A DNA stretch of 64,000 nucleotides, from positions 55,988,001 through 56,052,000 of the forward strand of contig NC_086108.1 of NCBI RefSeq assembly GCF_963921235.1. Reading direction: 5' to 3'. The position numbers and the translations under genes are program-made. Numbering within the stretch: position 1 is the stretch's first letter; each line of letters opens with the position of its first letter. Shown one piece after another: positions 18,464 through 56,219 of the stretch. The stretch is from Mobula hypostoma. Taxonomy: Eukaryota. The notes below the pieces were generated by a model, which saw only the letters and a program-made list of their open reading frames with translations, was not told the origin of the DNA and did no database searches.

Positions 18464-19492
18464 TAGATGTCATTCATTTTGATACAAGAAAATATGGTTC
18501 CAACATTCTAAGTGCCAGCATCAAATTTGAATGGTTTTCATCAACAAGCTTCTCCACTCTCCATTCTCAGAACATAAACTTGGACATATCAAATCTGCTC
18601 TGTTATCATTCATTCTTAGAAGGTCAGAACTGCAGTCCTTTATTCTTCTTGTTTTCCTTTCCTGTGCTATCACTAGTTGTTTTTATTCAAAACTTCAAGG
18701 CTGTTTCTTCCCAGTGACAATGCCTGAATGATCTCAATTTCTCAATTTTTTTTAGCCCATCATTCTGTGGGCTTCGGTTCTTCATCCATCTTTCTCAAAC
18801 TCAGATCAATTCTTCGAGATGTAACAGGTCACTTTCATCTATCCCAGATAGAGAAGTAATATGTTAACTCTCCTCCATTTCTCCGGAAATGCTATCACTC
18901 TCCTCATGAGGGTTCAGTAACCTAGCTTCTACCACGTTACATACAGCCTGATTTTACTGCACTGTGAAGAGATCAAAGTAAAATCGATGAAGGGCAGGGG
19001 CGTGGGGTTAAAATATAATCACTAGCAAATCCACCTACTCTCCCATATGGTAGGTTAGGTTAAATTTGGAATTGTGATGTCTGGCAATGTGATAAGGTGA
19101 AACATAAAAATCATTACAGCAGGGGTACGAGGGGATTCTAGGATGATTACACTGAATTGTACTTACTTCTGAATAGCAGTATGATGTTTTATGCTGTGTC
19201 TTGCCAGCAGTTCCACACAGAAATGTCAGTACAGTATTTGTCTTGTGTAAGTGGCAGCACATTTTAGAACTCTCACAAAAACAGGGCAGTCTTGATATGG
19301 GTGAGCTTTGCTGACAATTACCCTCTTGAACTCAGCTACTGGAGTCCAGGAAAGGAGCAGAATTAGATTGAGATACCCCAGCACCTATGCTGAGGAATCT
19401 ATTCTCAAATTCTGCACCAAGATGTACAGTTAAACTGGAAATGTGGTGCTGCAGGGAAAAATAACTAGAGTAACTTAACAAAAATTATCTAT

Positions 19493-19710
19493 GCAACACA
19501 CACAAAATGCTGGTGAACACAGCAGGCCAGGCAGCATCTATAGGAAGAGGTACGGTCGCCGTTTCGGGCCGAGACCCTTCGTCAGGCTCCGCCCAAAATG
19601 CCGACTGTACCTCTTCCTATAGATGCTGCTTAGCCTGCTGCGTTCACCAGCATTTTGTGTGTGTTGCTTGAATTTCCAGCATCTGCAGATTTCCTCATGT
19701 TTGTGTTTTT
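19493..19710. mobile_element. Two-armed (palindromic) Penelope-derived mini-element with hammerhead motif
   Basis: Inverted arms meet at about 19586. TSD AAAAATTATCT(A/G)TG at 19480-19493 and 19711-19724. Confidence 0.88.
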
Positions 19711-19924
19711 AAAAATTATCTGTGTTTTATTTAATGCTTTTATAATTTATTGTTAAGCACTTTAAGTGATTAATTATTTTAAAGACATTTTACATAACTT
19801 TGGCTTTAGTTTATATTTCATTTGTAATAGTTTTTAAATATTTCTCAATATCAGATTCACACAGTACATTGAAAATATTGTAACACTAGTAACAGTAGAT
19901 GATCTTATGGCCTCATAGAATACA

Positions 19925-19981
19925 TCTCTCACTCTCTCTCTCTCTCCCTCCCTCCCTCCCTCTCTCTCTCTCTCTCTCTCT
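19925..19981. repeat. (CT)n/(CCCT)n microsatellite
   Basis: Seen directly. Confidence 0.9.
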
Positions 19982-20444
19982 AGTGATCCGGGGGATTTAA
20001 TAGTTACTATTAACCAACAACTGCACAGAAGTTTGTTCTGTGATCTTCTAAGTCTCTGCTCTTTTATTTTGATAAATCCTTACCTTGTCCTTCAACCCAT
20101 AAAATTTAATAATGTATTTTTCTGCAATTAGTTTATATCAGCTTGCATTTGGCCAATTTATTAAATAGACTATATTCTCCTGAAGTCATATCTAATCATG
20201 TCACTATTAACTACACTCCATAATTTTTATAATGGTGTATGGCACAACGTTGTCCCAGATACCAAAGACCAAATAATATATATTGTAGGTGAGTGGGTCT
20301 CACTCTATGCTATTGAGTTTTATGATCAACAATTAGACAAACATTCCTACAGGGGAAGATAAAGTATTATACTCAACTGTTTTAAACCCTTTTCATCCAC
20401 CTTGTGATTACTGGGATAATTCTACCTTCCTTAAACTCTTAAAA

Positions 20445-21316
20445 CACTTTGCATTCTGTCTGGGTAGCCTGCAATCTGATGGCATGAACATCGATTTCTT
20501 CAACTTCCAGTAATGGCCTTCCCCACTCCCCTTCACCATTCCCCATCCCCTTTTCCCTCTCTCACCTTTTTTCTGTCTGCCCATCGCCTCCCTCTGGAGC
20601 TCCTCCCCCCTTTCCTTTCTTCCATGGCCTTCTGTTCTCCTATCGGACTCCCCCTTCTCCAGCCCTGTATCTCTTTCACCAATCAACTTCCCAGCTCTTG
20701 ACTTCATCCCGCCCCTCCCACTTTCACCTATCACCTTGTGTTTCTCTCTCCCTTTCCCACCTTTTAAATCTACTCTTCACATTTTTTCTCCAGTCCTGCC
20801 GAAGGGTCTCGGCCCAAAAAGTCGACTGTACTCTTTTCCATAGATGCTGCCTGGCCTGCTGAGTTCCTGCAGCATTTTGAGTGTGTTTCTTTAAACTTCT
20901 AGTAATTTCCCCCCCCCCCCACTTTTTTTTTCCATCCTCAATTCTGGTTCCTCTCTCATCCTTTCTCATCTCCTTATCTGCCCATCACCTCATCTTGGTG
21001 CCCCTCCTCCTTCTTTTTCTTTCATGGTCTACTGTTCTCACCTATCAGGTTCCTTCTTTAGCCCTTTATCTCTTTCTCCTATCACCTCCCAGCTTATTAC
21101 TTCATGTCCTCTCCCCACCCACCCACCTTTCCCCTCACATAGCCTCACCAACTTGTGCAACTTCTCCTCCTCCCCCCCCCCACCTTCTTATTCTGGCAAT
21201 TTCCCCCTTGCATTCCAGTTCTGATGAAGGGTCTCAGCCTGAAATGCCGATAGGTTGTTCCCCTCTATGGCTGCTGTCTGACTTGCTGAGCTCCTCCAGC
21301 ACTTTGTGTGTGTTAC
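20445..21316 (+). mobile_element. Two tandem Penelope-like 3' ends, each with a hammerhead motif (20792-20827 and about 21217-21250)
   Basis: CTGGGTAGCCTGCAATCTGATGGCATGAACATCGATTTC (GIY-YIG C-terminus, LGSLQxDGMNIDF) followed by two successive pyrimidine tract + CTGNNGAAGGGTCTC + CCAGCA..GTGTGT units. Confidence 0.8.
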
Positions 21317-21967
21317 AAAGAGTTGAGAGCAGTACTGAGGATAAATTTGGTCCAGTGACCACAGGAAAACATGATGCAAATGAAGATACAAAGCCTAGTG
21401 AAATATTTGTACTGAGAAAGCCAGGTAGAGGGGAGGTTGACTGCATTCAGCACCTACCTTGCTGATCTAATTTGTAAATTAAATATATTATTTATACCTG
21501 CATTTCCTTAATTGAAAAGAGTTTTTGCCATTGCACAAGCTTAAAAATTTGCAAGGTTTCAGATAAGTGCATTTTAGAGAAAAACATTATCAATTTCAAC
21601 ACAAATTTGAACAAATGTTTTCAAAGGTTAGGTGGCAATGCAAACTGAATTATTATGGAAAAATGGAAGATGGAATGCTCCAAAAGATCTGTCTGTGTTT
21701 ATTCAGTAGGAGACATATGTGTCAGTCAGCTGCCAATATTCCCTCTTTATGTACGTTCATGCATACACTCTAATTAATTCAGTTTCCCACTGTGTCCTAC
21801 CATTATGAATTTTCCCACACACATTCCTGCTGCTTCTTGTGCTTATGCTGATTCCTTTGCCCCTTATATCGGGTTCCTTCATGGCACATTATTTTCAAGT
21901 TTTTCGCTAAGCAGTTTGGGAGGGTTTTTTTTCTCCATGATCCTTCTGGGGATAATTGTTTATGATG

Positions 21968-21975
21968 TGACGTCA
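21968..21975. promoter_or_regulatory. Palindromic CRE (TGACGTCA) in the putative SGIP1 promoter region
   Basis: Exact motif in TE-free sequence, upstream of a GA-rich tract and about 900 bp before the ATG. Function untested. Confidence 0.45.
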
Positions 21976-21989
21976 GTGGGATTGATCTC

Positions 21990-22317
21990 TTTTCAATGGC
22001 ACAGAGAGCGAGAGAGAGAGGGAGGGAGGGAGAGAGAGAAGGGGAGGAACAAGCAGAAATGTGCAGCAGCTTTCTGACAAAAGGACACAAGCATTAACTG
22101 GCTGATTAACACGAGAACAACACTATAGCTTAATTATTGATATTCAGCTTTGGGAATGATATAAATGCTGAAGGGAAGAGGCTTTTTACTTGCATATTTT
22201 TGGATGCTCAGCTGATAGTGAAGGCTTCTACATGCGTTCGACAGTGCTGATTGTTAATCTGATCTGATCTGCCTGGCTACCCAAGTAGGATTATAAAACG
22301 GTGAATTGTGTCACAAG
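21990..22317 (+). other. SGIP1: Possible non-coding upstream exon (start uncertain)
   Basis: Donor-like CACAAG|GTATAT at 22317/22318 could pair with the acceptor TTTCCTGTGTCTTTCAG at 22840. No transcript evidence. Confidence 0.3.
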
Positions 22318-22327
22318 GTATATGGAC

Positions 22328-22333
22328 TGTGTG

Positions 22334-22415
<82 letters not shown>

Positions 22416-22470
22416 ATGTGCGCGTGTGTGTGAGTATGTCTGTTTCTCTGTGTGTGTCTGTGTGTGCGCG
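22328..22470. repeat. (TG)n microsatellite with degenerate extension
   Basis: Long pure TG run at about 22336-22414. Confidence 0.95.
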
Positions 22471-22875
22471 TGCACATCTGTCTGTCTGCTGGATGTTTGT
22501 GTCGGTGTGTGCAAATCAGAGAAAGGTGGGGAGGTGGCTTTTTCCTGTGTTCCCAAAAGGTATTGTGTCAGTTGATGGCAACCATGTGATTAGCAACAGA
22601 GCAACAGCAATTGGCTGAACCTAGCAGTTGTGTAGAGCACAGCAAGCTTCCTCTCCCTGTCTTTTATCAGCATCATTCTGTGAACCTGCTGCTGACAGCA
22701 TTTGTGGCATCCATGGCCTGTACACGCACCATTTCAGTTCCATCTTGGCATCCGCAATAACTAGGAGTTGATGCTGATCTTCATCCATTCCTGTTGAGTT
22801 CATATGTGATAACTGGCCGCTGCTTTCCTGTGTCTTTCAGGACCTTTGGAGATTAAGGAATGCAATTCTGCCACC

Positions 22876-22885
22876 ATGATGGAAG
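22876..22885 (+). CDS. SGIP1: First coding exon (10 coding nt, M-M-E-G, phase 1) of SH3GL-interacting endocytic adaptor 1
   Basis: Strong Kozak GCCACCATG, then ATG GAA G|GTAAGC donor, with an upstream acceptor at 22840. From recall, human SGIP1 begins MMEGLKKRTRK with a 10-nt first coding exon preceded by ATTAAGGAATGCAATTCTGCCACC, as seen here. Not database-verified. Confidence 0.8.
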
Positions 22886-23598
22886 GTAAGCTTCAATCCT
22901 ATGTAATATTTTAAGCCTGCCTTGTGAATTAGCTGAGCAGAAGTAAGCAAACGAAGGGCTTTCATTCAAACAGACAATGCCACGAGAGATCATGCATTCA
23001 TATTTCTAATTCATTCTGTGGCTATCCATTGCTTTCTATTGTGCTTTAGGCAGCAACTAAAAGCAAATGACCCTTATGGGTCCTTGAAACACTTGATGTC
23101 CTCCAGTTATCTTTTATGTACCCATTTCTGAGGGATTTTTATTGCCTATAAGGAAATTTAACAAGGTTGCTTTAGCAGTGACATCATTAAAGCTTCAAGA
23201 TTATCGAGATTATTGTGGACAAATACACCTCTGGATGAAAATAACTGATGAATTATGATTAATTACAAAATGTACCTCTGATTTAAACAAAGAGCACAGT
23301 AGTTCCAAATTTAAGTACATCTTGCAATGCATTAGAAGTTGTGTAAGCACTTAATGTAGTGATACTTGCATTAAGGCATAGAACATTTGTATATTAGGAG
23401 TGGAGAAAATCAGCCTTGTGTGGCAATGATATAATTCATTGCATAAAATGAATTATCTGCAACCACTATATTTAGTCTGCCTACTGTCCAAAATTATACT
23501 TTTTATATTAATCTGAACTCTCTGACTATATTAATTTGAATGATGCAACCAATATGATTACTTTTTCATCAGTCATGCTCATTTTCAGCCTGATTTCT

Positions 23599-23613
23599 GT
23601 TAACCATGGCAAC
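23599..23613. promoter_or_regulatory. RFX X-box-like motif in early intron 1
   Basis: GTTAACCATGGCAAC is close to the GTTNCCATGGNAAC consensus. Further half-sites ATGGCAAC and TAGCAAC at about 22575-22597. Confidence 0.3.
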
Positions 23614-25789: not shown

Positions 25790-25871
25790 CTCGGCCTGAA
25801 ACATTGACTGCACCTCTTCCTAGAGATGCTGCCTGGCCTGCTGCGTTCACCAGCAACTTTTATGTGTGTTG
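25790..25871 (+). mobile_element. Single-arm remnant of the Penelope mini-element
   Basis: CTCGGCCTGAAACATTGACTG...GTGTGTTG flanked by CCTAGTTTACAT at 25774-25785 and 25872-25883. Confidence 0.85.
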
Positions 25872-31044: not shown

Positions 31045-31049
31045 ATCTA

Positions 31050-34129: not shown

Positions 34130-34740
34130 AAGTACAAAATACTGAAAATACTCAGCAGGTCAGGCTGCATTTGTGGGAAGAGAAACACGATGGACATTTT
34201 GGGTCAAAGACCCTTTGTCAAAACAGAGAAAGGGACAAAAATGCAGAGAGAGCTGGGGAAATGGAATGTCTCTGATAAGATAAAACCAGGGAATAAACTG
34301 TAAACAGGGTTACACAGTCAATGAGTAATTGTGAGCTGTCAGAAAGTGAATCATACACAAAATGATATAGGAATTATGAAATGTAGAGCAAGAGCAAGAA
34401 AACATGCCCAGCAGATGAGGATGCGCATTCCCTCTACTCTCAGAAGATAACAGAAAAATGAAATACGACAACAAACAGCTCAGATGGTATTTCAGAGTGA
34501 CAATTGATTATGACAGAAATCAAACTGTAAAATTCAATACTAAGTTGAGAAGTTAAGTTACAACATGCCGATACAGAAGATGAGGTGCTGTTCCTCAAGC
34601 TTGTATTGAGCTCATTGGAACAGTGCGGGAGGCCACAGACCAATAGGGTGGAGTGGGAAGGCCAATTCAAGTACAAGACCTTGGGAAGCTCAGAGCACAC
34701 TGATTGAACACAGGTTTTGCACAGAATGATCACCCAGTTT
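34130..34740 (-). mobile_element. Old degenerate Penelope-like 3' region
   Basis: AAAATACTGAAAATACTCAGCAGGTCAGGCTGCAT...GGGTCAAAGACCCTTTGTCA and a decayed GIY-YIG C-terminal segment. Confidence 0.55.
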
Positions 34741-34910: not shown

Positions 34911-35126
34911 CACAAACAAGAGAAAATCTGCAGATGCTGGAAATCCAAGCAACACACACAGAATGCTGGAGGAACTCAGCGGGCCAGGCTGCATCTATGG
35001 AAAAGAGTACAGTCGACATTTCGGAGCAAGTCCCTTCACCAGGACTTGGCCCGAAACGTCAACCGTACTCTTTTCCATAGCGGCTGCCTGACCTGCTGAG
35101 TTCCTCCAGCATTCTGTGTGTGTTGC
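34911..35126. mobile_element. Two-armed Penelope-derived mini-element with hammerhead motif (35011-35046, minus strand)
   Basis: Inverted arms meet at about 35046. TSD TCAG(C/A)ATGCATAT at 34898-34910 and 35127-35139. Confidence 0.88.
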
Positions 35127-39339: not shown

Positions 39340-42273
39340 CAGTGCCTATAAAAAGTATTCATCCCCCCCCCCACCCCCGGAAGTTTTCATGTTTTATTGT
39401 TTTACAACATTGAATCACAATAGATTTAATTTGGCTTTTTTGATTCTGATCAACAGAAAAATATTCCTTCGTATCAAAGTGAAAACAGATCTCTACAAAG
39501 TGATCTAAATTAATTTCAAATATAAAACACAAAATAATTGATTAAGTATTCACCCCCTTTAGGTCAGTATTTAGTAGATGCACCTTTGGCAGCAATTATA
39601 GTCTTGAGTCTGTGTGGATTGGTCTCTCACGAAAAATGCTGGTGAACACAGCAGGCCAGGCAGCATCCATAGGAAGAGGTACAGTCGGTGATTCAGGCTG
39701 GGACCCTTCATCAGGACTAACTGAAAGAAGAGATAGTAAGAGATTTGAAAGTGGGAGGGGGAGGGGGAGATCCGAAATGATAGGAGAAGACAGGAGGGGA
39801 GGGGTGGATCTAAGAGCTGGAGAAGGGAGAGGATCATGGGACGGGAAGCCTGGGGAGAAAGAGAAGCGGGGAGGGGAGCCTGGAGGGTGGAGAGCAGGCA
39901 AGGAGTTATAGTGAGAGGGACAGAGAGAGAAAAAAAACGGGGAGAAAAAAATAAAAAATATATAAAATAAATAATTAAGGGATGGGGTGTGAAGGGAAGG
40001 AGGGGCGTTAACGGAAGTTTGAGAAGTCAATGTTCATGCCATCAGGTTGGAGGCTACCCAGACGGAATATCAGGTGTTGTTTCTCCAACCTGAGTGTGGC
40101 TTCATCTTGACAGTAGAGGAGGCCGAGGATAGACGTATCAGAATGGGAATGGGACGTGGAATTAAAATGTGTGGCCACTGGGAGATCTTGCTTTCTCTGG
40201 CGGACAGAGCGTAGGTGTTCAGGGAAACGGTCTCCCAGCCTGCGTCAGGTCTCGCCAATATATAGAAGGCCACACCGGGAGCACCAGACGCGGTATATCA
40301 CCCAGTCGACTCACATGTGAAGTGTTGCCTCACCTGGAAGGACTGTCTGGGGCCCTGAATGGTGGCAAGGGAGGAAGTGTAAGGGCATGTGTAGCACTTG
40401 TTCCGCTTACAAGGATAAGTGCTGGGAGGGAGATCGGTGGGAAGGGATGGGGGGGACGAATGGACAAGGGAGTCACGTAGGAAGCGATCCCTGTGGAAAG
40501 CAGAAAGAGGTGGTGAGAGAAAGATGTGCTTATTGGTGAGATCCCTTTGGAGGTGGCGGAAGTTACGGAGAATTATATGTTGGACCCGGAGGCTGGTGGG
40601 GTGGTAGGTAAGGACAAGGGGAGCCCTATTCCTAGTGGGGAGGCGGGAGGATAGGGTGAGAGCCAATGTGCGTGAAATAGGAGAGATGCATTTGAGAGCA
40701 GAGTTGATGGTGGAGGAAGGAAAGCCCCTTTCTTTAAAAAAGGAAGACATCTCCTTCATCCTGGAATGAAAAACCTCATTCTGAGAGCAGATGCGGTGGA
40801 GACGGAGGAATTGCAAGAAGGGGTTGGCATTTTTACAAGAGACGGTGGGAAGAGGAATAGTCCAGGTAGCTGTGAGAGTCTGTAGGCTTATAGTAGACAT
40901 CAGTAGATAAACTGTCTGAAGAGATAGAGACAGACGGATCAAGAAAGGGGAGGGAGGTGTCAGAAAGGAGAGATAGGTCTCTATCAGCTTTGCATATCTG
41001 GACACTGCAATTTTTCTCCATTCTTCTTTATAAAACTGCTCAAACTCTGTCAGATTGCATGGGGATTGTGAGTGAACAGTTCTTTTCAAGTCCAGCCACA
41101 AATTCTCAATTGGATTGAGGTCTGGACTCTGACTTGGCCACTCCAGGACATTAACTTTTTTTTGTTTTTAAGCCACTCCTGTATAGCTTTGGCTTTATGC
41201 TTGGGGTCATTGTTTTACTCCGAAGCCGCAGTTCTCTTACAGACTGCATCAGGTTTTCCTCCAGGATTTCCCAGTAGTTTGCTGCATTCATTTTACCCTC
41301 TATCTTCACAAGCATTCCAGGGCCTGCTGCAGTACCATGCTTCATGTTAGGGATGGTGTGTTTTTGATTATGTGTGGTGTTTAGCTTACATCAAACATAG
41401 CGTTAGTCTGATGACCAAAAAGCTCAATTTTGGTTTCCTCAGGCCATAGAATCTTCTTCCAGCTGACGTCAAAGTCTCCCTCATGCTTTCTGCCAACTCT
41501 ACCCAAGATTTCATGTGAGTGTTTTCCAACAGTGGCTTTCTCTTCGCCACTCTCCCATAAAGCTGCAACTGGTGAAGCATCCAGGCAACAGTTATTGTAT
41601 GCACAGTCTCTCCCATCTCAGCCTCTCAGCCACTGAAGCTTGTAACTACTCCAGAGTTGTCATAGGTCTCTTGGTGACAACCCTCACTAGTCCCTTTCTT
41701 GCACGGTCACTTGGTTTTTGAGGATGGCCTGCTCTAGGCAGACTTACAGCTTTGTTGTATTCTTGATGACTTAACTATACTCCAAGTGACTTAGAAATTT
41801 TCTCATCCACCTCCTGAATTGTGCTTTTCAATAACTTTTTGTGGAGTTGTTTGGAGTGTTCTTTTGTCTTCATGGTGTAGTTTTTGGCAGGATACTGACT
41901 CATTAGCAGTTGGACTCTTCCAGATACAGGTGTATTTTTACCAGTAAATTGAAACACCTTAACTGCACACAGGTCTCCAAAAACAGATCTCCATTTAACT
42001 AATTATGTAACATCTAAAACCAATTGCCTGTACCAGTGATGATTTGGTGTGTCATAGTAAAGGGGTGAATATTTACGCAATCAATTATTTTGTGTTTTAT
42101 CTTTATAATTACTTTAGATCACTTTGTAGAGATCTGTTTTCACTTTGACACGAATGAGTCTTTTTCTGTTGATCAGTGTCAAAAAAAGCCACATTAAATC
42201 CACTGTGATTCAATGTTGTAAAACAATAAAACATGAAAACTTCCAAATGGGTGAACACTTTTTATGGGCTCTA
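39340..42273 (-). mobile_element. Tc1-like DNA transposon with ~220-bp TIRs and decayed transposase
   Basis: TA duplication at 39338-39339 and 42274-42275. TIRs begin CAGTGCCTATAAAAAGTATTCA and end TGAACACTTTTTATGGGCTCTA. Peptides MKTKEHSKQL, LYGRVAKRKPLL and GKMNAANYWEILEENL. Confidence 0.9.
39628..40971 (-). mobile_element. 5'-truncated Penelope-like element nested in the Tc1
   Basis: RT C-terminus STDVYYKPTDSHSYLDY, a GIY-YIG region, and a hammerhead motif at 39683-39718. TSD GAT(T/A)GGTCTCT at 39617-39627 and 40972-40982. Confidence 0.88.
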
Positions 42274-43309
42274 TACTTGGATTTTCAGAAGGCCTTTGAC
42301 AAGGTGCCACATTGAGGATGCTTAACAAGCTATGAGCCCATGGTATTACAGTAGAGATTGTAGCTTGGATAAAGCAGTGGCTGAGTGGCAGGAGGCAAAG
42401 AGTAGGAATAAAGGGAGCCTGCTGTGGTCGGCTGTCGGTGACTAGTGGTATTCCACAGGGATCTGTTTTAGGACCGATTCTTTTTATGCTATATATCAAT
42501 GATTTGGATGAAAGAATTGATGGGTTTATTTCAAAGTTTGTATACAATGTGAAGGCAGGTGGAGGGGCAGGTAGTTTTAAGGACATAGAGAGGCTACAGA
42601 GGACTTAGATTAGGAGAATGGACAAAGAAATGCACACAGTGTCAGGAAGTGTATGGTCATGCACTTTGGTAGAAGAAATGAAATGGTTGACTATTTTATA
42701 AATGGAGAGAAAATACAAAAACTGAGGTGCTAGGGGACTTGGGAGTCCTTGTGCAGAATTTGTAGGTTGAGTCTGTGGTGAGGAAGTGAAATGCAATGTT
42801 AGCATTAATTTCAAGATGACTAGAATATAAAAACAAGGATGTAATGTTGAGACTCTATAAAGCAATGGTGAGGTCTCATTCAGAGTATTGTGATCAGTTT
42901 TGTACCCCTTATCTTAGAAAGGATGTGCTGAAACTGGAGAGGGTTCAAAGGAGTTTCACTAAAATGATTATAGGATTGAATGTTTTTCGTATGAAGAGTG
43001 TTTGATAGCTCTGGGCTTGTATTCACTGGAATATGTAAGAATGAGGGGTGACCTTATCAAATGGTGAAAGGCCTTGATAGAGTAGATGTGGAGATGATAT
43101 TTCCTGTGGTGGGAGAGTCTAAGACCAGAGGACAGCCTCAGAATAGGGGGGGGCGTCCTTTTAGAACAGAAATAAGGAGGAATTTCTTTAGCCAGACAAT
43201 GTTGAATCTGTGGACAACAGGAATTCTGCAGATGCTGGAAATTCAAGCAACATACATCAAAGTTGCTGGTGAACGCAGCAGGCTAAGCAGCATCTATAGG
43301 AAGAAGCGC

Positions 43310-43345
43310 AGTCGACGTTTCAGGCCGACACCCTTCGTCAGGACT
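43310..43345 (-). ncRNA. Minimal type I hammerhead ribozyme motif
   Basis: Minus strand reads AGTC-CTGACGA-AGGGTGTCGGCCT-GAAA-CG-TC-GACT, with an intact core. Confidence 0.75.
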
Positions 43346-45161
43346 AACTGAAGGAAGAGTGAGTAAGGGATTTGAAAGCTGGAGGGGGAGGGGGAGATGC
43401 AAAATGATAGGAGAAGACAGGAGGGGGAGGGATGGAGCCGAGAGCTGGACAGGTGATAGGCAGAAGGGGATACGAGAGGATCATGGGACAGGAGGTCCGG
43501 GAAGAAAGACGGGGGGGGGTGACCCAGAGGATGGGCAAGAGGTATATTCAGAGGGACAGAAGGAGAAAAAGGAGAGTGAGAGAAAGAATGTGTGCATTAA
43601 AAAGAGTAACAGATGGGGTACGAGGGGGAGGTGGGGCCTAGCGGAAGTTAGAGAAGTCAATGTTCATGCCATCAGGTTGGAGGCTACCCAGACGGAATAT
43701 AAGGTGTTGTTCCTCCAACCTGAGTGTGGCTTCATCTTTACAGTAGAGGAGGCCGTGGATAGACATGTCAGAATGGGAATGGGATGTGGAATTAAAATGT
43801 GTGGCCACTGGGAGATCCTGCTTTCTCTGGCGGACAGAGCGTAGATGTTCAGCAAAGCGGTCTCCCAGTCTGCGTCGGGTCTCACCAATATATAAAAGGC
43901 CACATCGGGAGCACCGGACGCAGTATATCACCCCAGTCGACTCACAGGTGAAGTGATGCCTCACCTGGAAGGACTGTTTGGGGCCCTGAATGGTGGTAAG
44001 GGAGGAAGTGTAAGGGCATGTGTAGCACTTGTTCCGCTTACACGGATAAGTGCCAGGAGGGAGATCAGTGGGGAGGGATGGGGGGACGAATGGACAAGGG
44101 AGTTGTGTAGGGAGCGATCCCTGCGGAATGCAGAGAGAGGCAGGGAGGGAAAGATATGCTTAGTGGTGGGATCCCGTTGGAGGTGGCGGAAGTTACGGAG
44201 AATAATATGTTGGACCCGGAGGCTGGTGGGGTGGTAGGTGAGGACCAGGGGAACCCTATTCCTAGTGGGGTGGTGGGAGGATGGAGTGAGAGCAGATGTA
44301 CGTGAAATGGGGGAGATGCGTTTAAGAGCAGAGTTGATAGTGGAGGAAGGGAAGCCCCTTTCTTTAAAAAATGAAGACATCTCCCTCGTTCTAGAATGAA
44401 AAGCCTCATCCTGAGAGCAGATGCGGCGGAGACGGAGGAATTGCGAGAAGGGGATGGCGTTTTTGCAAGAGACAGGGTGAGAAGAGGAATAGTCCAGATA
44501 GTTGTGAGAGTCAGTAGGCTTAATCCCAAACAGTCCTTCCAGGTGAGGCATCACTTCACCTGTGAGTCGACTGGGGTGATATACTGCGTCCGGTGCTCCC
44601 GATGTGGCCTTTTATATATTGGTGAGACCCGACGCAGACTGGGAGACCGCTTTGCTGAACATCTACGCTCTGTCCGCCAGAGAAAGCAGGATCTCCCAGT
44701 GGCCACACATTTTAATTCCACATCCCATTCCCATTCTGACATGTCTATCCACGGCCTCCTCTACTGTAAAGATGAAGCCACACTCAGGTTGGAGGAACAA
44801 CACCTTATATTCCGTCTGGGTAGCCTCCAACCTGATGGCATGAACATTGACTTCTCTAACTTCCGCTAGGCCCCACCTCCCCCTCGTACCCCATCTGTTA
44901 CTCTTTTTAATGCACACATTCTTTCTCTCACTCTCCTTTTTCTCCTTCTGTCCCTCTGAATATACCTCTTGCCCATCCTCTGGGTCACCCCCCCCCGTCT
45001 TTCTTCCCGGACCTCCTGTCCCATGATCCTCTCGTATCCCCTTCTGCCTATCACCTGTCCAGCTCTCGGCTCCATCCCTCCCCCTCCTGTCTTCTCCTAT
45101 CATTTTGCATCTCCCCCTCCCCCTCCAGCTTTCAAATCCCTTACTCACTCTTCCTTCAGTT

Positions 45162-45197
45162 AGTCCTGACGAAGGGTCTCGGCCTGAAACGTCGACT
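45162..45197 (+). ncRNA. Minimal type I hammerhead ribozyme motif; predicted cleavage after GUC at 45193
   Basis: Stem I AGUC/GACU, core CUGACGA...GAAA, stem II in AGGGUCUCGGCCU, and palindromic ACGU in place of stem III. This is the form known for Penelope-like elements. Confidence 0.78.
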
Positions 45198-46314
45198 GCG
45201 CTTCTTCCTATAGATGCTGCTTGAATCTGTGGAATTTTTTTGCCACAAGCAGCTGTGAAGGCCAAGTCTTTATGTATATTTAAGGTAGTGGTTGATAGAT
45301 TCTTGATTGGTCAGGGCAAGAAAGGATACGTGGAGAAGGCAGGAGATTGAGGCTGAGAGGAAAATTGGATCAGCCATGATGAAATGATGCAAACTGAATG
45401 GGCCAAATAGCCTAATTCTGCTCCTATAGCTTTTGGTCTTATGGTCGAAACTTGGCACTAATGTAAATATATATTTTCTCATTCGTTTTCAAGCCAAGTT
45501 GAATAGAAAGTAGGTTTGGCACATTATTTCAAAGGATAATGGGATTCTTATATTATGAAAGCTGGGAAGAAAATATACTTGTTGAATCATAGTCCATAAA
45601 GGCCATAAGATACAGGAACAGAATTAGGCCATTTGGCCCATCGAGTCTGCTCCGTCATTTCATCATGGCTGACCCATTTTCCCTCTCAAGCATACTCAAG
45701 CGTTAGTTAAGAAACTGAAAACAAATCTGGAATAATTTTGACTTTGAGTTCAAGCAGTAAAATGATTCAGATTTTATATCTCCAATATGTAATACTTATT
45801 TTAGAGCAGTGGATTAGTCAGAGGCTAAATTTAATAGAAAAGTTGATTGTGTCTGTAGTTTTAGAAGAGTGTAAGCAAAAGAAGAATGTTTATATTTGAT
45901 GACACATTTTCTTCCAAATTAGATTGTAAATGAAACTGGAGCAAAATTAGACTGGGATGTCTCAGTATCAGCATGAATCCCAAGTGCAGAATATGCATGT
46001 CCTTAAAAGTAATCCCTCTAACAGATGTGATTTACCTGTCAATGCAGACACTGCTAAGACTGATGTCAGTTATACCTGATATCCTGCTATTAATATCGGG
46101 CCACTGCTGCACAATCATGTATGATCAGAGCACCCCTAGTGAGTCATTAGTTTAACTAAGGCAAGCTCTACAGGCCTCAGTAGTCTCCCAGAGAGAAATC
46201 TCTGAATTCTCCACAGGCACCAATGCAAATATTGCACTGAAAGTTTATAGGAGTTGAATTGGAGAAGTTATGATTCTTCTAAGACAGTCACTCCTATAAT
46301 GAGAGTACAGGTTA

Positions 46315-48105
46315 CAATGGATTCCAGTTAATTGGGCCATCGATTAATCGGATCAGCTGCTTATTAGGGACAACTCTTAAAGAACAAAATCGAATCAAGA
46401 AAATTGCGGGAATTCCCTTTGTTTATTTGAGACACTATGTCACTTAATTGGGACAGGAGACTGCTGCCAAACAGTTTCCAACTATCATCAGATGCGTACA
46501 CTTGTGTGGCGGTTAAACACTACACTGTGTTTGGATCAAACAGTTTTTAAACAGCACCAGTTGTGTGTGTTTTTGTTCAAAAGCAGTGATTTTTGTCATT
46601 GATAGTTGGAGAGAAATAAGCAGTAAAGCTCTTTGGAAGTGTTCTACTCATGGCGGTTTCAAGCTTTCAGGTTTGGAGATGCTTGGAATGGTCGGGAGTG
46701 AAAATGGAATAATGTCACTACTTCAGCAAGTTAGGAACTATGGAGAATTTGAAAGTATCGACAATCAACTGGAATATTACAGTAAAAATGAAAATTTGTA
46801 GATTTGCAATCGTCATTAGTATTGTATGAAGGCTGTCCATTACACTGGACAACAAATTTTATCAAAAGTGCTGCTTCCTCAGAATTTTTTTTGTTTATAA
46901 TAGACTGCTTGAAGATGAACGCAAATATAATTTCAGACTACTTGTATCACATGGGAATTTGGAGAAACAACAAATTAACTTTTATTGAATATAATGTGTT
47001 TAATTGCATAATGGTACTGATGCTTTACAATAGTTCAATTAAGTTAAAAATATTTTGTTAATGATTTTCATTTGTACTCAGTTCCTGAGGCTTCTCGCTT
47101 AAGTGTCCAACAATAATTTGCCAGCATTTACAGAGTCCAGTTGCCCTGGTATCTTTTCTCCATGACTGCAATGTCCTGGTGAAAACCTTTACCATGCTTG
47201 TCACTAACAGCACCAAGATTTGCAGGGGAGAAGTCTAGATGGGTATACAGAAAATGAGTCTTTAGTGACATGTTGCATTTCATGGTTTTATATGCTTGAA
47301 GCATGCTTTCAACCAGCTGCATGTAGTTTGGTGCTCTGTAGATGCCGGGAAAAATTTCAACAACTTCCTTGAATGCCTTCCATGTGATTTTCTCCAGTCC
47401 CACTAGAAATTCTTCAACTTGCCTGTCATTGATGACCTGTTTGATTTGTGGACCAACAAAAATGCTTTCCTTAATCTTGGTATCAATTATTCCGGGAAGC
47501 ATCTGTCTCAAATATCAAAATCCTTCATAGAAATTTTTGTGCCTGGTGATAGCAAATTCCATCCTTGCAGTCCTGAACCCAATAATTATTACTAAAACCT
47601 GCCTGCCGCGCCGCCTAAGCATGCCCAAGCATGCCCGGACAAGATAGGAAACTTTCCAGCTTACATTGTAGGCAACATTTTAATTGACTTGAATTATGAA
47701 TTGAAATAATAAACATAAGTTTATTTTAAAAAATGGTGCATGATAGGGAAATTTCATGGTGATTTTCATGATCAGTCACCCAAGATTCACAAGGTACACC
47801 AAAAGATATACAGGATGCAAAATCTTTGTTGTCCAGTGTAATCTACTCTAGGCATCTGTGCTGATTTTGTTCATTACATACATACACTGGATACATCGAT
47901 AACTATTAGGGACTAATACACAGTTTTATAGTACTGTAGTGTTCTAATTTGTTCTGCATTTCATTTTAACATGTAATTTGTTACTCAGTTTGTTTTTTTT
48001 AAATATTTTTAACTCTTTCCATGAAACTTTGGCTAATTAAGGCAGCTGCTTAATTGGGCAAAAATGTACTGGTCTCAATGTGTCCCAATTAACTGGAATC
48101 TACTG
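46315..48105. mobile_element. Non-autonomous pogo/Tigger-like element
   Basis: TA flanks. TIRs are CAATGGATTCCAGTTAATTGGG and CCCAATTAACTGGAATCTACTG. Confidence 0.8.
46843..47838 (-). mobile_element. Internally deleted Chapaev3 (CMC) DNA transposon nested in the Tigger-like element
   Basis: TIRs CACTGGACAACAAA / TTTGTTGTCCAGTG with TTA/TAA flanks. ORF 47128-47511 IKESIFVGPQIK...NMSLKTHFL..HLDF...GAVSDKHGKGFHQDIAVMEKRYQG. Confidence 0.8.
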
Positions 48106-49375
48106 TAATTCCAAAAGTTTATCAAGATGTATATACTTTTTAAAAAGGATCATTTAACACATTCAGTTGAAACATTGGTAGACTGTATTTAAAATTGGCT
48201 TGGCCACGGACGATGAAGTGTTGTGGTTGACAGGTGTTATTCTGGTGGGAGATCTTCGACCAGTGGTATTCCATGTTGCTCTGAGCTGGGACCACTTATG
48301 CTTATGACATGGGTAAGTGATTTGAATGAAAATATTACTATAAGTAAGCCTCGAGTTGTGGAGAGTAAAGAAGATTGCAAAGGGATGCAGCAGGATAGAG
48401 ATTGCAAACAAGAACAAATCTGCAGGTGCTGGGAATCAAAGCAACATGCACAAAATGCTGGAGGAACATAGCATGGCCAGGCAGCATCCATGGAAAAGAG
48501 TAAACTGTCATTGTTTTGGGCCGAAACCCTTCATCCGGATTGTTGGAATAAAGATGAGGAGTCAGAGTAAGAAGGTGGGGGGAGGGGAGAAAGAAGTACA
48601 AAGTGGTAGGTGATGAGTGAAACCAGGAGACGGGAAGCAGTGAATTCAGTTGATTGTTGAAAGAGATAAAGGGCTGGAGAAGAGAGAATCTAATAGGAGA
48701 GGACAGAAAGCCATGGAAGAAAGGGAAGAGGGGAGGAGCACCAGAGGAAAGTGATGGACAGGTAACAAGATAAGGTGAGAGTGGGAAATGGAAATGGGGA
48801 ATGGTGAAGGAGAAGGGGGGTGTGGGAGCAATTACCGGAGGTTTGAGAAATCAATGTTCATGCCATCAGGTTGGAGGCTAACCAGATGGAAGATAAAGTG
48901 TTGCTCCTTCAACCTGAGTGAGGCCTCATTATGACAGTAGAGGAAGCTATGGACTGACGTGTCAGAATGGGAAAGGGAAGTAGAATTGAAGTGGGTGGCC
49001 ACCAGGAGATCCTGCTTTTTCTGGTGGACTGAGCGTAGGTGCTCGGCAAAGCAGTCTCCCAATCCCCATTGGGTCTCACCGATATACAGGAGGTTGCACC
49101 GAGAGCAACAGATACAGTAAATGATCCAACAGTCTTGCTGGTGAAGTGTTGCCTCACCTGGAAGGACCATTTGGGGCCCTGAATGATAGTGAAGGAGGAG
49201 GTACAGGGGAAGGTGTGGCATTTGTTCCACTTGCAGGGGTAAGTGCCAGGAGGGAAATCAGTGGGGAGAGACGAATGGACAATGGAGTCGCGTAGGGAGT
49301 GATCCTTGTGGAAAGTGGAAAGTGGGGGACAGGGAAAGATGTGCTTGATGGTGGGATCCACTTGGAGATGGTGGA

Positions 49376-49594
49376 CAACAGGAATTCTGCAGATGCTGGA
49401 AATTCAAGCAACACACATCAAAGTTGCTGGTGAACGCAGCAGGCCAGGCAGCATCTGTAGGAAGAGGTGCAGTCGACGTTTCAGGCCGAGACCCTTCGTC
49501 AGGACGAAGGGTCTCGGCCTGAAACATCGACTGCACCTCTTCCTACAGATGCTGCCTGGCCTGCTGCGTTCACCAGCAACTTTGATGTGTGTTG
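49376..49594. mobile_element. Young near-perfect palindromic Penelope mini-element inserted into the older Penelope copy
   Basis: Arms 49405-49500 and 49503-49598 (95/96 match, 2-nt centre). TSD CTTGGAGATGGTGGA at 49361-49375 and 49595-49609. Confidence 0.93.
49471..49505 (-). ncRNA. Minimal hammerhead ribozyme motif at the palindrome centre
   Basis: Minus strand reads GTC-CTGACGA-AGGGTCTCGGCCT-GAAA-CG-TC-GAC. Confidence 0.7.
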
Positions 49595-52035: not shown

Positions 52036-53189
52036 GTAAGCATTGGTTGTGGTCAAGGTCACGACTACAATAACATGCACAATTGGCACGAGGGTAGGGG
52101 CTAAATGGGCTGAAAAAAGAGCCACCCATAGTCAGGAGTTTTTATTAAAAGGGGAATTTACTAAAGTTGGTTCTCAGCCACAGGTTCCATGGGATATGAT
52201 TTGCTCTAATAGTTTCCTTTTAAATTGTGAAAGGGAGCCTGAGTACTTCCCTGCAAAGCTTTTACTGCATGGTTGGCCTGTGCTGCTCAGCAATATGAAG
52301 CAGGAGGAATGGAGAAACATTGCATATCACTGGTAGTCACTGCACATCTGGAACCACCTTCATATTGCTACTGTATCAAATACATAGAGGAACTGGAAAG
52401 AAATTGGAACACACAATGAATAGTTTTCCAAAGTAGAAGTAATGTGCAATGAGTAAAAATATTATGCAGTAGTGTTGCATTACTTGGCTATAACCTACAT
52501 CCAGAACTTGCATTACGTAACTTTTTATAAAGCCTGGGTAGGTGTTATGAACTGTATATTATTAAAGTTAAATTTAGTTACTAACTTTAATATTTAGTTG
52601 TTAATTACCCATACAGTTGATTGGATTATAAGTTTCTGGATGGGCAAATATGCTTTCTGTCATTTAAACTGCTGCAGTGCAGAGCTTTGCTTTGGTGGGT
52701 ACAGTTTTTGGTGATGCAGTTATTATTAAGATTGGCACAGTTCGAATGTATAGTTTCTGTGCAGTAAGCAGTGAGAAGAGATTAATTTTGTAATATTCCA
52801 TCTTTGACAAACAGCATCAAAGATTTTTAAATGCTCTACTGTAAAATACAGTAACCATGGACATAAAAAACTGCAGATGCTGGAAATCTGAAATAAAATA
52901 GAGAATTCTTATATCACTCAGTAGGTCTGGCAGCAGCTCTGGAAAGAGAAACTGGTTTAATATTTCAGGTCTGCAAATAGAATAACAAAAATAGAGCCTA
53001 AATGGTAAAAGTAAAAGTGGCCAATTCTGGTAACCCAAGCTTGCAATACATGTAGATACCAGTGACAATGAAAAGGAGTCCTGTAACATTGGTTTAGGGT
53101 GCTAGGTAGTCATCTAAAGAGCAGGAATTCATAGTTTGACATCCTTGGGTTTCTTCTGGTGCCACGAGCAAGTATAAAGATAAATATTA

Positions 53190-53474
53190 GCTTTATTTGT
53201 TTACATCGAAATATCAAAACATGCAGGGAAATGTACCATTTCAGACATTGACTAACACAGTCTGAGGATGTGCTGGGACAGCCCATAAGTGTCGCCATGC
53301 TTCCAGTGCCAACGTAGCCTGCAACTCACTAACCTGTACATCTTTGGAATATGGGAGGAATGCAAACACAGTCATAGTAATAGTGTACAAACTCCTTGCA
53401 GACAGCAGTGGGTACTAAACCCAGATCGCTGGTGCTCTGAAGCGTTATATTAACCGTTACACTACCATGCCACC
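53190..53474 (-). mobile_element. V-SINE-like tRNA-derived SINE
   Basis: Reverse complement of GGTGGCATGGTAGTGTAACGGTTA (A-box-like), GGAGTTTGTAC and CCTCCCATATTCCAAAGATG. Confidence 0.65.
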
Positions 53475-54640
53475 TCATAGTGCTGGAATAAAAGGACAGG
53501 TTGGATAAATGTGTGACTGATGGGATGTTGCGGAGGGGTAGGCTTTAGGTTTCTGGATCATTGAGATTGTTTCTGGGTGAAGCGGAACCTGTACAAGTGA
53601 CAGGTTGCATCTCAGGGAACCAGATCAGGATCCACAGTGTGAAGTGTGCTTACTCTGGCTGGTAATGCTTATGATACATTGACTATGGAATGGGGGTTCA
53701 GAGCAGTTGTACTAATGAAGAGATACAAGATACAATCACCTTAAGGAAAAATTATTAAGTGTATTAGGAAGAACAAGTGAGAACAATCAGAGGAATCCAA
53801 AGCTAAATTGTACCTATTTTAATACATGGTGCATAACGAGTAAAGTCGATGATCTCAAACCTATAACTAAAATGGGAATCTATGATATTGTTGCCCTCAC
53901 TGGGACATGGTTGAAGGATGGGCAAGATTGGTAACTCAATATCATAGAAGGCTTCTCAAACAAGACTATCTGGATAGATAGATATTAGAAATGGAAAAAG
54001 TATTATCCAAAGAGGGAAGGAGCATTACTGGCCCTCATAAATACACAGGAGATGCTCTCTGTCAGGCTTAAAGATGGATCAGTCCTCAAGACCAGATGTG
54101 ATTTCTTGAAAGCTGTGACTAGAGGCAAGGAAGGAGATTACTGCAGGTCTGGCCAAGATTTTTAAATCTACCTTGGGTATAGGTGAGGTAACAGATGACT
54201 AGAGGACTGCAAATGTGATTCCTGCCAAGTAAGGCATTAGGGAAATACTTGGTAACTATAGATCTATGAGCATAACATCACTGGTAGAGGAGATTTTGGA
54301 AAACATTCTCAAGTAGAGGATTAATGATCACTTGGAAAGGAATGGATGAGTCAGAGAGAGACAACATGTCTTTGTCAAGGGCAAATCCTCCTTGATGAAT
54401 TTCATTAAATTCTTTGAAGAGGTAACAAGATATATTGATATTCTGCAGGACAATATTTGTAATTTATGCAGGCTTCAGTAAAACCCTTTACAAGGTCGCA
54501 CAGAGAGATTAGTTCAAAAGATTAGGGCCCATGGGATCCAAGACGAACTGTTACAATGGATCCAAATTTTTCTTGACAGAGGGAGGTGGCAGAGAGCTTT
54601 TGTGATTGGATGCCTGTGACTTATTGATATACTATAAGAA

Positions 54641-55029
54641 CGGAGTGGCACACCACAAGGGGTCGGAGTGGCACACTACAAGGGATCGGAGTGGCACACT
54701 ACAAGGGGTCGGAGTGGCACACTACAAGGGGTCGGAGTGGCACACTACAAGGGATCGGAGTGGCACACTACAAGGGATCGGAGTGGTATACTACAAGGGG
54801 TCGGAGTGGCACACTACAAGGGATCGGAGTGGCACACTACAAGGGATCGGAGTGGCACACTACAAGGGGTCGGAGTGGCACACCACAAGGGGTCGGAGTG
54901 GCACACTACAAGGGATCGGAGTGGTATACTACAAGGGATCGGAGTGGCACACTACAAGGGATCGGAGTGGTATACTACAAGGGATCGGAGTGGCACACTA
55001 CAAGGGATCGGAGTGGTATACTACAAGGG
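54641..55029. repeat. 23-bp minisatellite, about 17 copies (CGGAGTGG[CAC/TAT]ACTACAAGGG[A/G]T)
   Basis: Seen directly. It has no stop codon in any + frame, hence three overlapping repetitive ORFs. Confidence 0.95.
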
Positions 55030-55208
55030 TTGGTGCTGGGACCCTTGTTAAAAAAAAATACATGAATGACCTGATGAGGATATGAAAGGCATGATCAATA
55101 AGTCTGTGGATGCTATGAAGATTTCGTGCTACTGTAGGTAGTCTTGAAGATAGCCTTAGGCTGCAGCAAAATGTAGATTCATTGATGAAATGAACACAAA
55201 GTAGCAGA

Positions 55209-55434
55209 GCAACACGCACAAGATGCCAGAGGATTTCAGGCCAGGCAACATCTATGGAAATAAGCCTTCTTGCTCTAACTTATCTACTTTTTTCAGTCCT
55301 GAAAAAGGGTCTGAGCCAGAGACATCAACGGTTTACTCTTTTCCATGGATGCTGCCTGGCCGGCTGAGGCCCTCCAGCATTCTGTGCATGTTGCTCGGAT
55401 TTCCAGCATCTGCGGAATTTCTTGTCTTTGTGCT
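55209..55434. mobile_element. Older two-armed Penelope mini-element
   Basis: Short inverted arm at 55209-55260 plus a long arm with a decayed hammerhead (about 55295-55330). TSD ACAAA(G/A)TAGCAGAG at 55196-55209 and 55435-55448. Confidence 0.8.
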
Positions 55435-56219
55435 ACAAAATAGCAGAGGTTTATTTCAAACAAAAGTGAGGTGATGCGTTCTGAGAGCACTAATGAGGCT
55501 AAAGCATTCACCACGAGAGGTAGGGTCTTGGGGAATATTGAGGAACAGGGGGATCTCAGAGTTCAAGACCATGGATCCTTGGAAGTTGCAATGCAGGAAG
55601 ACAGTGAGAAAGCATTAAGGGACGCTGGCCTCATTAGCTAGCTTAGACGTGTTGGGTTTATGCTCCAGCTCCAACTCAGAACTCAGCTGTGCGCTGTTCT
55701 GTTCATTAAGGTATAGGAAGAATGACACAGTCATGGAACTACACAGCTCTCAGGAAAGCCTTTCAGTCTAACTCATCCATGCCAACCAAATTGACCAGCA
55801 AATGGGAATCGTTCATTATGAATATAATTGTCCAAATATCTTTTAAACATGGCAATTGTATCCACCTTTACCACGTTCTCTGGTACCTCCTTCCTTACAC
55901 TCCCTGTGCAGAAATAAATTACTCCTCACATTCCCTTTAAATAGTTTCCACCTCTCTTTAAACCTATGCGACAATGCTAGAGAGGCTCCAGGATATTGCT
56001 TAAGATGGAGGAGTTCAATGATGGGAGAGACTGGAGAAGCTAGTCTGTTCTCCCTACAGTGGAGGAGGGGAAGAGGGATCATGGTTGAGGTATATAAAAT
56101 TATGAGGGTTATAGATCAGGTACGCTGCAGGAAACTTTAACACATCAGAAGCAGATGAAACTAAGGAAATATGTTTATGCTAAGGAGTACGTGATTCAGA
56201 GGGTGTATGTTAGGGATCT

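What the first reader, a model, noticed from the sequence alone, without database searches (positions are those of the whole stretch)
19480..55448. Family of two-armed, hammerhead-bearing Penelope mini-insertions with a fixed second-arm end, suggesting double-ended target priming
Seen: independent insertions at 19493-19710, 34911-35126, 49376-49594 and 55209-55434 (plus the 2-kb version at 43215-45220) share one architecture. Each has a 13-15 bp TSD enclosing two inverted copies of the element 3' end, both 3' ends pointing outward. One arm runs to the far terminus (...GCAGATTTTCTC.TGTTTG or ...GAATTCCTGTTG). The other stops about 30-40 nt earlier at ...GTGTTGC in all four minis and in the solo arm at 25871. 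In three minis the arms join inside or at the edge of the hammerhead motif. The two arms of one insertion share variants not seen in the others (CAGAATG at 35 kb, CTGTAGG at 49 kb, AAGAAGCGC at 43 kb). Established: Penelope-like elements carry minimal hammerheads and often have inverted terminal repeats. Inference: both 3'-OH ends of a staggered GIY-YIG cut prime reverse transcription from two defined sites near the RNA 3' end, and the two cDNAs are joined head-to-head, often after stopping at the ribozyme fold. The product looks like a MITE but is retro-derived.
Basis: partly seen in the sequence, partly recalled or inferred. Interest (0 to 1): 0.78.

Follow-up and report, generated by a model that had tools for sequence, protein, structure and literature searches.

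The report
Penelope insertions primed from both ends
These short mirror-image insertions are cut-down copies of a Penelope-type jumping gene in an already published layout, but in a sample of this genome nearly every one pairs a long end with a short end, which likely means that both cut ends of the DNA start copying one RNA at two set points.

Summary
In detail: all five inserts carry 13-15-bp TSDs around two outward-pointing arm ends. They are truncated copies of an abundant Penelope-like element with RT, CX4CxxC linker, GIY-YIG and minimal hammerhead. The layout (inverted pLTR, TSD, 30-40-nt tail on one arm) is the published 'typical Penelope structure' (PMC3846280, PMC8557442); two RT start sites and extension of both strands were shown in vitro (PMC11167929). 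The scan noted this pattern before on other DNA.

A 1.77-Mb census adds:
- 38 of 39 classifiable TSD-bounded pairs have one tailed and one tail-less arm.
- Both ends show excess short microhomology with the target.
- Minis have different centres and are not a clade.
- The tail-less arm reaches further upstream in 16 of 29, so arms are not nested as simple self-priming requires.
- Three tailed arms stop at the partner's start site, as in L1 twin priming.

Corrections: the short end is a narrow window (26 of 35 within 4 nt), not one base. Inner ends pile up at the hammerhead's 5' edge, a splice-acceptor-like site, not at its cut site. Best model: twin priming on one RNA. No biochemistry was done.

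The parts
19494..19710 (.). Two-armed mini: tail-less arm on - (19494-19586), tailed arm on + (19587-19710); TSD 19480-19493/19711-19724
34911..35126 (.). Two-armed mini of the older subfamily: tailed arm on - (to -97), tail-less arm on + (from -85); TSD 34898-34910/35127-35139
43215..44522 (-). Tailed arm of the 2-kb insert (element -1274..+32): RT thumb end, linker, GIY-YIG, 3' UTR, hammerhead, tail
44525..45220 (+). Tail-less arm of the 2-kb insert (element -737..-40); 1 mismatch in 696 nt against the other arm; TSD 43202-43214/45221-45233
43638..44159 (-). Frame with CX4CxxC linker and GIY-YIG endonuclease (PF01541, E 6.4e-05, above gathering score)
43309..43345 (-). Minimal hammerhead motif (helix I edge at 43345 = position -98; core CTGACGA...GAAAC; predicted cut after 43314)
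   Evidence: sequence read by eye; no Rfam hit
45162..45198 (+). Second copy of the minimal hammerhead motif, in the tail-less arm
   Evidence: sequence read by eye
49376..49594 (.). Two-armed mini, young subfamily, arms joined in the hammerhead core with a short palindromic overlap; TSD 49361-49375/49595-49609; inserted into an older copy of the same element
55210..55434 (.). Two-armed mini of the older subfamily: short tail-less arm on - (to about -55), tailed arm on +; TSD 55196-55209/55435-55448
25790..25871 (+). Single tail-less arm (-82..-1) with its own 12-bp TSD (25774-25785/25872-25883) and 4 extra bases at the 5' junction

Best explanation
These are separate, 5'-truncated insertions of one Penelope-like retroelement family, each likely made by twin priming: the GIY-YIG enzyme would cut the two DNA strands about 14 nt apart, and the two 3' overhangs would each prime reverse transcription on one element RNA, one at a distal site (+32..+36, giving the tail) and one about 35 nt upstream (-3..0). 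Shown in the sequence: TSD lengths, two end windows, one of each per insert, short microhomology at both ends, non-nested arms, separate origins. Inferred: 3'-overhang cut geometry, annealing of 1-4 nt at each site, a two-RT (probably dimeric) complex. Because one RNA offers each site once, every product is long+short. The RT starting at the distal site usually goes on through the region already copied, displacing the other cDNA (inferred), so the same stretch appears twice as inverted arms; sometimes it stops at the other primer, giving a tail-only arm as in L1 twin priming. The two cDNA ends are then joined head-to-head by end-joining with 0-10 nt of overlap or a few filler bases. Minis arise because many cDNAs end at a preferred point just upstream of the hammerhead (an RNA 5' end or a roadblock; unresolved). 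If only one end primes, an ordinary single-armed copy results. The minis are dead products, not a MITE family.
For: Unbiased sample of 1,774,000 bases: of 41 TSD-bounded head-to-head pairs, 38 long+short, 1 short+short, 0 long+long, 2 long+earlier end; 38 of 39, binomial p 7e-11 against independent choice. Adjacent termini within 500 nt: 53 face outward, 4 inward, 6 direct. TSD 11-18 bp, mode 14 (39 inserts). Microhomology between TSD and the element's next bases: mean 1.49 nt at short ends (35 of 39 locatable; null 0.34 random, 0.53 permuted TSDs) and 1.56 at long ends (25 of 39; null 0.35, 0.67); 0 of 5000 null draws reached either. In 29 young two-armed inserts the tail-less arm reaches more than 5 nt further upstream in 16, the tailed arm in 8, 5 are level. 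Among 67 young arms, 3 stop at -12..-3 and none at -52..-13; all 3 are tailed arms whose partner starts 2-7 nt away (L026:9228, L126:695, L044:6296). Arms of one insert share rare alleles at 30 of 11,674 sites against 14 of 82,442 between inserts (24 pairs). Arm lengths correlate (Spearman 0.71, n 29; 0.57 in the 25 unbiased). 16 of 71 unpaired arms have a TSD close to both ends, 8 long and 8 short, so each site can be the only primer (counted by eye). In vitro, PAc cuts and extends both strands, starts at two internal sites that bound the tail, and is predicted to be a dimer (PMC11167929).
Against: All evidence is genomic. One RNA copied twice cannot be told from two sister RNAs of one locus on an asymmetric complex. 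Among 26 close head-to-head pairs without a passing TSD (mostly older), 18 are long+short, 4 short+short, 1 long+long and 3 have an earlier end (counted by eye); decay may explain these, but the rule is not absolute (L029:6008 is short+short with a perfect 14-bp TSD). The partner arm is the closest copy in only 8 of 23 pairs. PMC11167929 reports no difference of start site between strands and no homology to the cut DNA in vitro. Microhomology could also come from end-joining rather than priming. No null was run for the single-arm TSDs. Strand displacement by this RT is untested.
Confidence: 0.66

Rival explanations
1. Dual priming on two RNAs: each target end primes on its own transcript, both from the same source locus, and an asymmetric enzyme complex assigns the distal site to one end and the proximal site to the other.
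For: Explains overlapping arms of up to about 2.7 kb without strand displacement (L204) and shared rare alleles if the transcripts are sisters. Postulated for L1 (PMC2837659).
Against: Gives no reason for tailed arms to stop right at the partner's start site (3 of 67 arms, none in the next 40 nt). Needs an extra rule to forbid long+long and short+short. Needs co-packaging of sister RNAs in a family with very many sources.
Confidence: 0.2
2. Self-priming or fold-back: one strand (antisense RNA in PMC3846280, or first-strand cDNA) folds back and copies itself; the endonuclease then resolves the intermediate, leaving the tail on one side only (wording of PMC8557442).
For: Palindromic junction overlaps (L138, 49-kb mini), near-identical arms and correlated arm lengths fit a hairpin. 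It is the explanation in print. In 8 of 29 inserts the tail-less arm is nested in the tailed arm.
Against: A folded-back arm must be a subset of the first arm. In 16 of 29 the tail-less arm reaches further upstream while only the other arm has the tail, and in 3 the arms barely overlap. Rescue needs precise trimming of one arm at a site that also ends single-armed TSD-bounded copies and shows microhomology to the target.
Confidence: 0.1
3. A MITE-like palindromic master (or masters) is copied whole, by a DNA transposase or by the PLE machinery.
For: Many minis are 210-245 bp and look alike.
Against: All 28 inserts of 300 nt or less have different centres (by eye). 14 mini arms need 14 changes on an 84-row tree, and one clade is rejected (p-AU 0.00016). 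Sizes run from 68 bp to 5.5 kb, and TSD length varies from 11 to 18.
Confidence: 0.02
4. Two independent insertions side by side, or later homogenisation of arms by gene conversion.
For: Termini are dense (320 in 1.77 Mb).
Against: One TSD encloses both arms (null 2 of 396). Orientation is 53 outward to 4 inward. Older minis' arms have diverged to about 88-90%, so they are not being homogenised.
Confidence: 0.02

Closest known systems
Typical EN+ Penelope-like insertion: inverted pLTR, TSD, optional 30-40-bp tail on one arm (Pen2a_Av, PMC3846280; Fig. 2 legend of PMC8557442)
   Same: Head-to-head inverted 5'-truncated copy, one TSD around the whole unit, tail on one end only, hammerhead in the pLTR (passages).
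   Different: Those papers describe few copies and invoke self-priming or EN-mediated resolution. Here the long+short pairing is counted (38 of 39), arms are often non-nested, TSDs are longer (mode 14 against 8-10), and many inserts are only the two pLTR arms.
PAc (Poseidon of Anolis carolinensis) in vitro TPRT, PMC11167929
   Same: Two internal RT start sites that bound the tail, near a stem-loop downstream of the hammerhead; both strands cut and extended; uncleaved RNA is the main template.
   Different: Different clade (this element has the CX2-5CxxC linker, which Penelope/Poseidon lack). PAc showed no strand difference in start site and no homology to the target; this genome shows one site per end and excess microhomology. 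The paper does not discuss inverted arms or TSDs.
L1 twin priming and postulated dual priming (PMC2837659; original model by Ostertag and Kazazian recalled, not read)
   Same: Both target 3' ends prime; TSD bounds two inverted pieces; tail-only arms that stop at the second primer match the classical outcome.
   Different: In L1 the second site is anywhere internal and the arms do not duplicate each other. Here it is a fixed window about 35 nt from the first, there is no poly(A), and the arms usually duplicate the same region.
Minimal hammerheads of metazoan PLEs, PMC4209133
   Same: Minimal core with palindromic helix III, abundant as scattered single motifs. In D. virilis the intron end maps to the 5' end of helix I; here a pyrimidine tract plus YAG sits at the same place.
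   Different: Self-cleavage was not tested here. The pile-up of insertion 5' ends at the helix I edge is not mentioned in the passages read.

Membership tests
EN+ Penelope-like element (C-terminal EN) | Single ORF with RT followed by C-terminal GIY-YIG endonuclease | tested here: met
   L202 frame of 934 aa hits RVT_1 (E 6.9e-05, below gathering score); window 43641-44159 hits GIY-YIG (E 6.4e-05, above gathering). In the copies seen, the EN lies in a separate frame after a break.
EN+ Penelope-like element (C-terminal EN) | Two cysteines between GIY and YIG (CCHH motif) | tested here: met
   VIYCVRCSRCGLLYIG read in the translation; the histidines were not aligned to a reference.
EN+ Penelope-like element (C-terminal EN) | pLTRs from partial tandems, direct or inverted; tail equals the element's 5' start | tested here: met
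   L202 has a 137-nt direct pLTR at 98.5% on both sides of the ORF, and the 5' copy runs on through the tail into the ORF.
EN+ Penelope-like element (C-terminal EN) | Hammerhead motif in the pLTR | tested here: inconclusive
   Minimal motif present by eye and conserved across subfamilies; no Rfam hit; the MFE fold does not form it (z -0.42); cleavage untestable here.
Neptune or Nematis clade | CX2-5CxxC zinc-finger-like linker upstream of GIY-YIG | tested here: met
   CKRNKCYTC in the translation; feature defined in PMC8557442.
Neptune clade specifically | RT phylogeny with reference Neptune elements | not tested
   No reference PLE proteins were fetched. Neptune is favoured only because it is reported from fishes (PMC4209133).
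MITE (non-autonomous DNA transposon) | Copied as a unit: shared interior, own clade, fixed TSD length | tested here: not met
   Different centres, clade rejected, TSD 11-18 bp.
L1-type twin-priming product | Two inverted pieces of one RNA that do not duplicate each other, inside one TSD | tested here: not met
   Met in only 3 of 29 young inserts; the rest duplicate the same region. It works like twin priming but is not the L1 form.

The most novel reading that the evidence does not exclude
Twin priming is the default integration route of this PLE family, not an accident. One complex holds a single RNA at two fixed sites about 35 nt apart, hands one site to each 3' overhang of a ~14-nt staggered cut, and copies the same RNA twice by strand displacement. 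This single rule would explain the inverted pLTRs, the one-sided tail and the TSD of all EN+ PLEs. A conserved splice-acceptor-like site at the hammerhead's 5' edge sets a preferred end for the copies and so defines the solo pLTR.
Probability: 0.4. Interest if true: 0.66.

Novelty: new member of a known kind. Interest (0 to 1): 0.43.

Why it matters
How Penelope-like elements make their inverted repeats and one-sided tail is named as an open question in PMC8557442, and PMC11167929 leaves the steps after priming unvalidated. This genome holds a very large natural record (320 termini in 1.77 Mb; by extrapolation several hundred thousand in 3.48 Gb). It turns the question into countable predictions: one start site per DNA end, short annealing at both, non-nested arms. 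These can be tested directly in the existing PAc in vitro system. The layout itself is not new.

Tried and rejected
DNA search of the own genome with the terminus gave nothing (common words are skipped), so stretches were sampled instead. Rfam: no hit. RNA folding of the pLTR-tail region is not better than shuffles (z -0.42) and does not form the hammerhead, though it puts the short site on the 3' side of a local hairpin. Public runs: no RNA holder listed on record; all runs laid are contigs, which cannot show RNA starts. They gave loose ends at 43343-43347 with low agreement and no joint there, so no shared upstream exon was seen; this is no evidence on expression or splicing. A cap-derived extra G at arms ending at -98 was looked for and not seen consistently. 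L076:36-2252 first looked like a tail-only arm, but its tailed arm is split by a later 2-kb insert. Seven tandem-amplified copies in L133/L134 were left out of the 5'-end count. Seven of 46 inserts were left out of the microhomology and TSD-length count: weak or ambiguous TSD, or not long+short. No structure or complex prediction and no RT tree with reference PLEs were run.
Full report
OBSERVATION. Each is bounded by one 13-15-bp TSD with 0-1 mismatch and holds two inverted copies of the same terminus with 3' ends outward. Positions below count from the C of GTTGC at the short end (0). On this scale the hammerhead core starts at -94, its predicted cut follows -67, helix I begins at -98, and the long end lies at +32..+36. 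The four minis and the solo arm at 25790-25871 end at -1..0. The 43-kb short arm ends at -40, probably a short-site end that lost 40 nt between two 5-nt repeats (inference). The variants called private are mostly subfamily variants, found in 5, 7 and 3 arms of the sample; the 35-kb one is also in the 55-kb mini.

WHAT THE ELEMENT IS. The 43-kb arms encode the end of a Penelope-like ORF with a CX4CxxC linker and GIY-YIG domain. A protein search of the own genome gave 185,091 first-look candidates; 150 were scored and the 150 matches listed were 86-100% identical. Locus L202 is near full length: a 137-nt pLTR, an RT frame of 934 aa, and a second pLTR ending at the short site. Its 5' pLTR runs on through the tail into the ORF, so the tail is the element's own 5' start. 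The linker places it in Neptune or Nematis (PMC8557442); no RT tree was made.

CENSUS. I sampled 171 stretches of 10 kb from eight large contigs (30 of them flank the window; the rest were set at round coordinates) plus the window: 1,774,000 bases. 35 further loci came from the protein search and are biased to long young copies. The unbiased sample holds 320 termini, 138 long and 182 short, with bimodal ends. Of 172 candidate head-to-head pairs, 47 passed a TSD cut-off that 2 of 396 random pairings reach; 41 lie in the unbiased sample. Of these, 38 are long+short, 1 short+short, 0 long+long, and 2 pair a long arm with an earlier end (p 7e-11 for 38 of 39). Against this, 26 close pairs without a passing TSD include 4 short+short and 1 long+long. 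TSDs are 11-18 bp, mode 14; 21 of 39 begin with T and 21 end with A. Short ends span -12..+1 (26 of 35 at -3..0), long ends +29..+41 (19 of 25 at +32..+36). Both ends share more bases with the target than chance: means 1.49 and 1.56 nt against 0.34-0.67 in two nulls, 0 of 5000 draws.

NOT A COPIED UNIT. The 28 inserts of 300 nt or less all have different centres (by eye). On a tree of 84 long arms (those spanning -80..+28 at 84% identity or more), the 14 mini arms need 14 changes, and one clade is rejected (p-AU 0.00016; few columns, rough bootstrap). Sizes run from 68 bp to 5.5 kb.

ONE SOURCE FOR BOTH ARMS. In 24 pairs, arms share rare alleles at 30 of 11,674 sites against 14 of 82,442 between inserts. 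The partner is closer than the median copy in 23 of 23, but the closest of all in only 8. Arm lengths correlate (0.71, n 29; 0.57 in the 25 unbiased).

ARMS ARE NOT NESTED. A folded-back strand can copy only what the first strand holds. In 29 young inserts the tail-less arm reaches further upstream in 16, the tailed arm in 8, and 5 are level (two centres are ambiguous palindromes). In the 16, neither arm contains the other. In three inserts the tailed arm is little more than the tail and stops 2-7 nt from the partner's start; no young arm of 67 stops in the next 40 nt. This is the classical twin-priming outcome described for L1 (PMC2837659). Single-armed copies with a TSD end at either site (8 long and 8 short among 71 unpaired arms; no null), so each site behaves as a priming site. 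Two of the long singles carry 6-9 bases that read as a tiny inverted short arm.

WHERE THE ARMS STOP INSIDE. Of 49 young arms that reach -93, 19 stop at -102..-93, 11 of them at -98 or -97. Other 10-nt bins lose 0-13%, and only 2 of 61 stop around the hammerhead cut. So the cDNA passes through the ribozyme and ends at its upstream edge, and cleaved RNA is not the main template, as in PAc. That edge is preceded by a pyrimidine tract and YAG in the young subfamily and in 18 of 19 older arms listed, like a 3' splice site; in D. virilis the intron ends at the 5' end of helix I (PMC4209133). No shared upstream exon appears at genomic junctions. An RNA 5' end, a bound-protein roadblock or cDNA snap-back at helix I remain open. 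The same boundary makes the single-armed 'solo pLTRs'.

MECHANISM. Best model (0.66): a staggered cut leaves two ~14-nt 3' overhangs. Each anneals by a few bases to one of two sites on a single RNA and primes its own RT. The distal RT usually displaces the other cDNA and re-copies the region; sometimes it stalls at the other primer. The two cDNA ends are then joined. Two-ended priming as such (this model plus the two-RNA rival) I put at about 0.86. Everything enzymatic is inferred.

KNOWN VERSUS NEW. The layout is in print as the typical Penelope structure, with self-priming (PMC3846280) or EN-mediated resolution (PMC8557442) as explanations. PMC11167929 shows both strands cut and extended and two start sites bounding the tail, but does not discuss inverted arms or TSDs in its text or in its three text-held supplements (figures not held). 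Searches found no paper proposing twin priming for PLEs or counting the pairing; the library lacks most subscription papers, including older Penelope reviews. What I saw of each paper: PMC11167929, parts 1-2 of 4 of the text, term passages and a supplement search; PMC8557442, PMC3846280, PMC4209133, PMC2837659 and bioRxiv 10.1101/2024.12.14.628481 (supplements closed; not relied on), passages only. The original L1 twin-priming paper is recalled. Earlier notes of this scan report the same pattern and reading in other genomes and in two other pieces of this one. They are unchecked, came after my own reading, and are not independent support. One note's rule that the tail-less arm is the longer holds here only as a tendency (16 of 29).

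VERDICT. Real, well supported, a new member of a known kind. Its value lies in the counted rules, which argue against the published self-priming explanation and can be tested in an existing in vitro system. Interest 0.43.

Noticed in passing
L029:6008-6501: Short+short two-armed insert with a perfect 14-bp TSD: the one clear exception to the pairing rule.
   Followed up: partly
L055:8202-8496: Mini whose tailed arm holds a tandem re-copy of about 62 nt (-86..-25), suggesting RT slippage or re-priming.
   Followed up: no
L165:6926-7555: One TSD encloses a short arm plus a partial tandem (pLTR part, tail, about 320 nt of ORF start, pLTR, tail): template jumping within one event.
   Followed up: partly
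L133 and L134: At least seven tail-less arms of about 95 nt repeated inside a minisatellite-like array, amplified with the array.
   Followed up: no
L075:4960-5084: Two-armed insert whose TSD is itself PLE terminus sequence: insertion into an older copy's short-site region.
   Followed up: no
window 54638-55044: Tandem array of a 23-bp unit whose end resembles LINE RT-region sequence found elsewhere in the window (LINE identity recalled).
   Followed up: no
window 39633-41170: Older PLE copy on the - strand, adjoined by a DDE_3 (Tc1/mariner-like) transposase fragment in the same frame translation.
   Followed up: partly
window 42336-42605 and 43000-45460: LINE RT fragment (RVT_1, E 3.2e-07); the 2-kb insert appears to sit inside LINE-derived sequence (inverted-repeat matches of its flanks).
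   Followed up: no
window 47128-47514 (-): 128-aa frame that looks like a DNA-transposase remnant (recalled resemblance); no Pfam hit at E 0.01.
   Followed up: partly
window 2272-2467 and 58976-59171: 196-nt direct repeat at 96% identity, 56.7 kb apart.
   Followed up: no
window 881-1026, 16431-16690, 20443-20891, 21217-21314, 48405-48539, 1856-1897, 34133-34224, 52866-52948: Further termini of the same family in the window; none was paired with a partner arm, and the three checked as single arms had no TSD found.
   Followed up: partly
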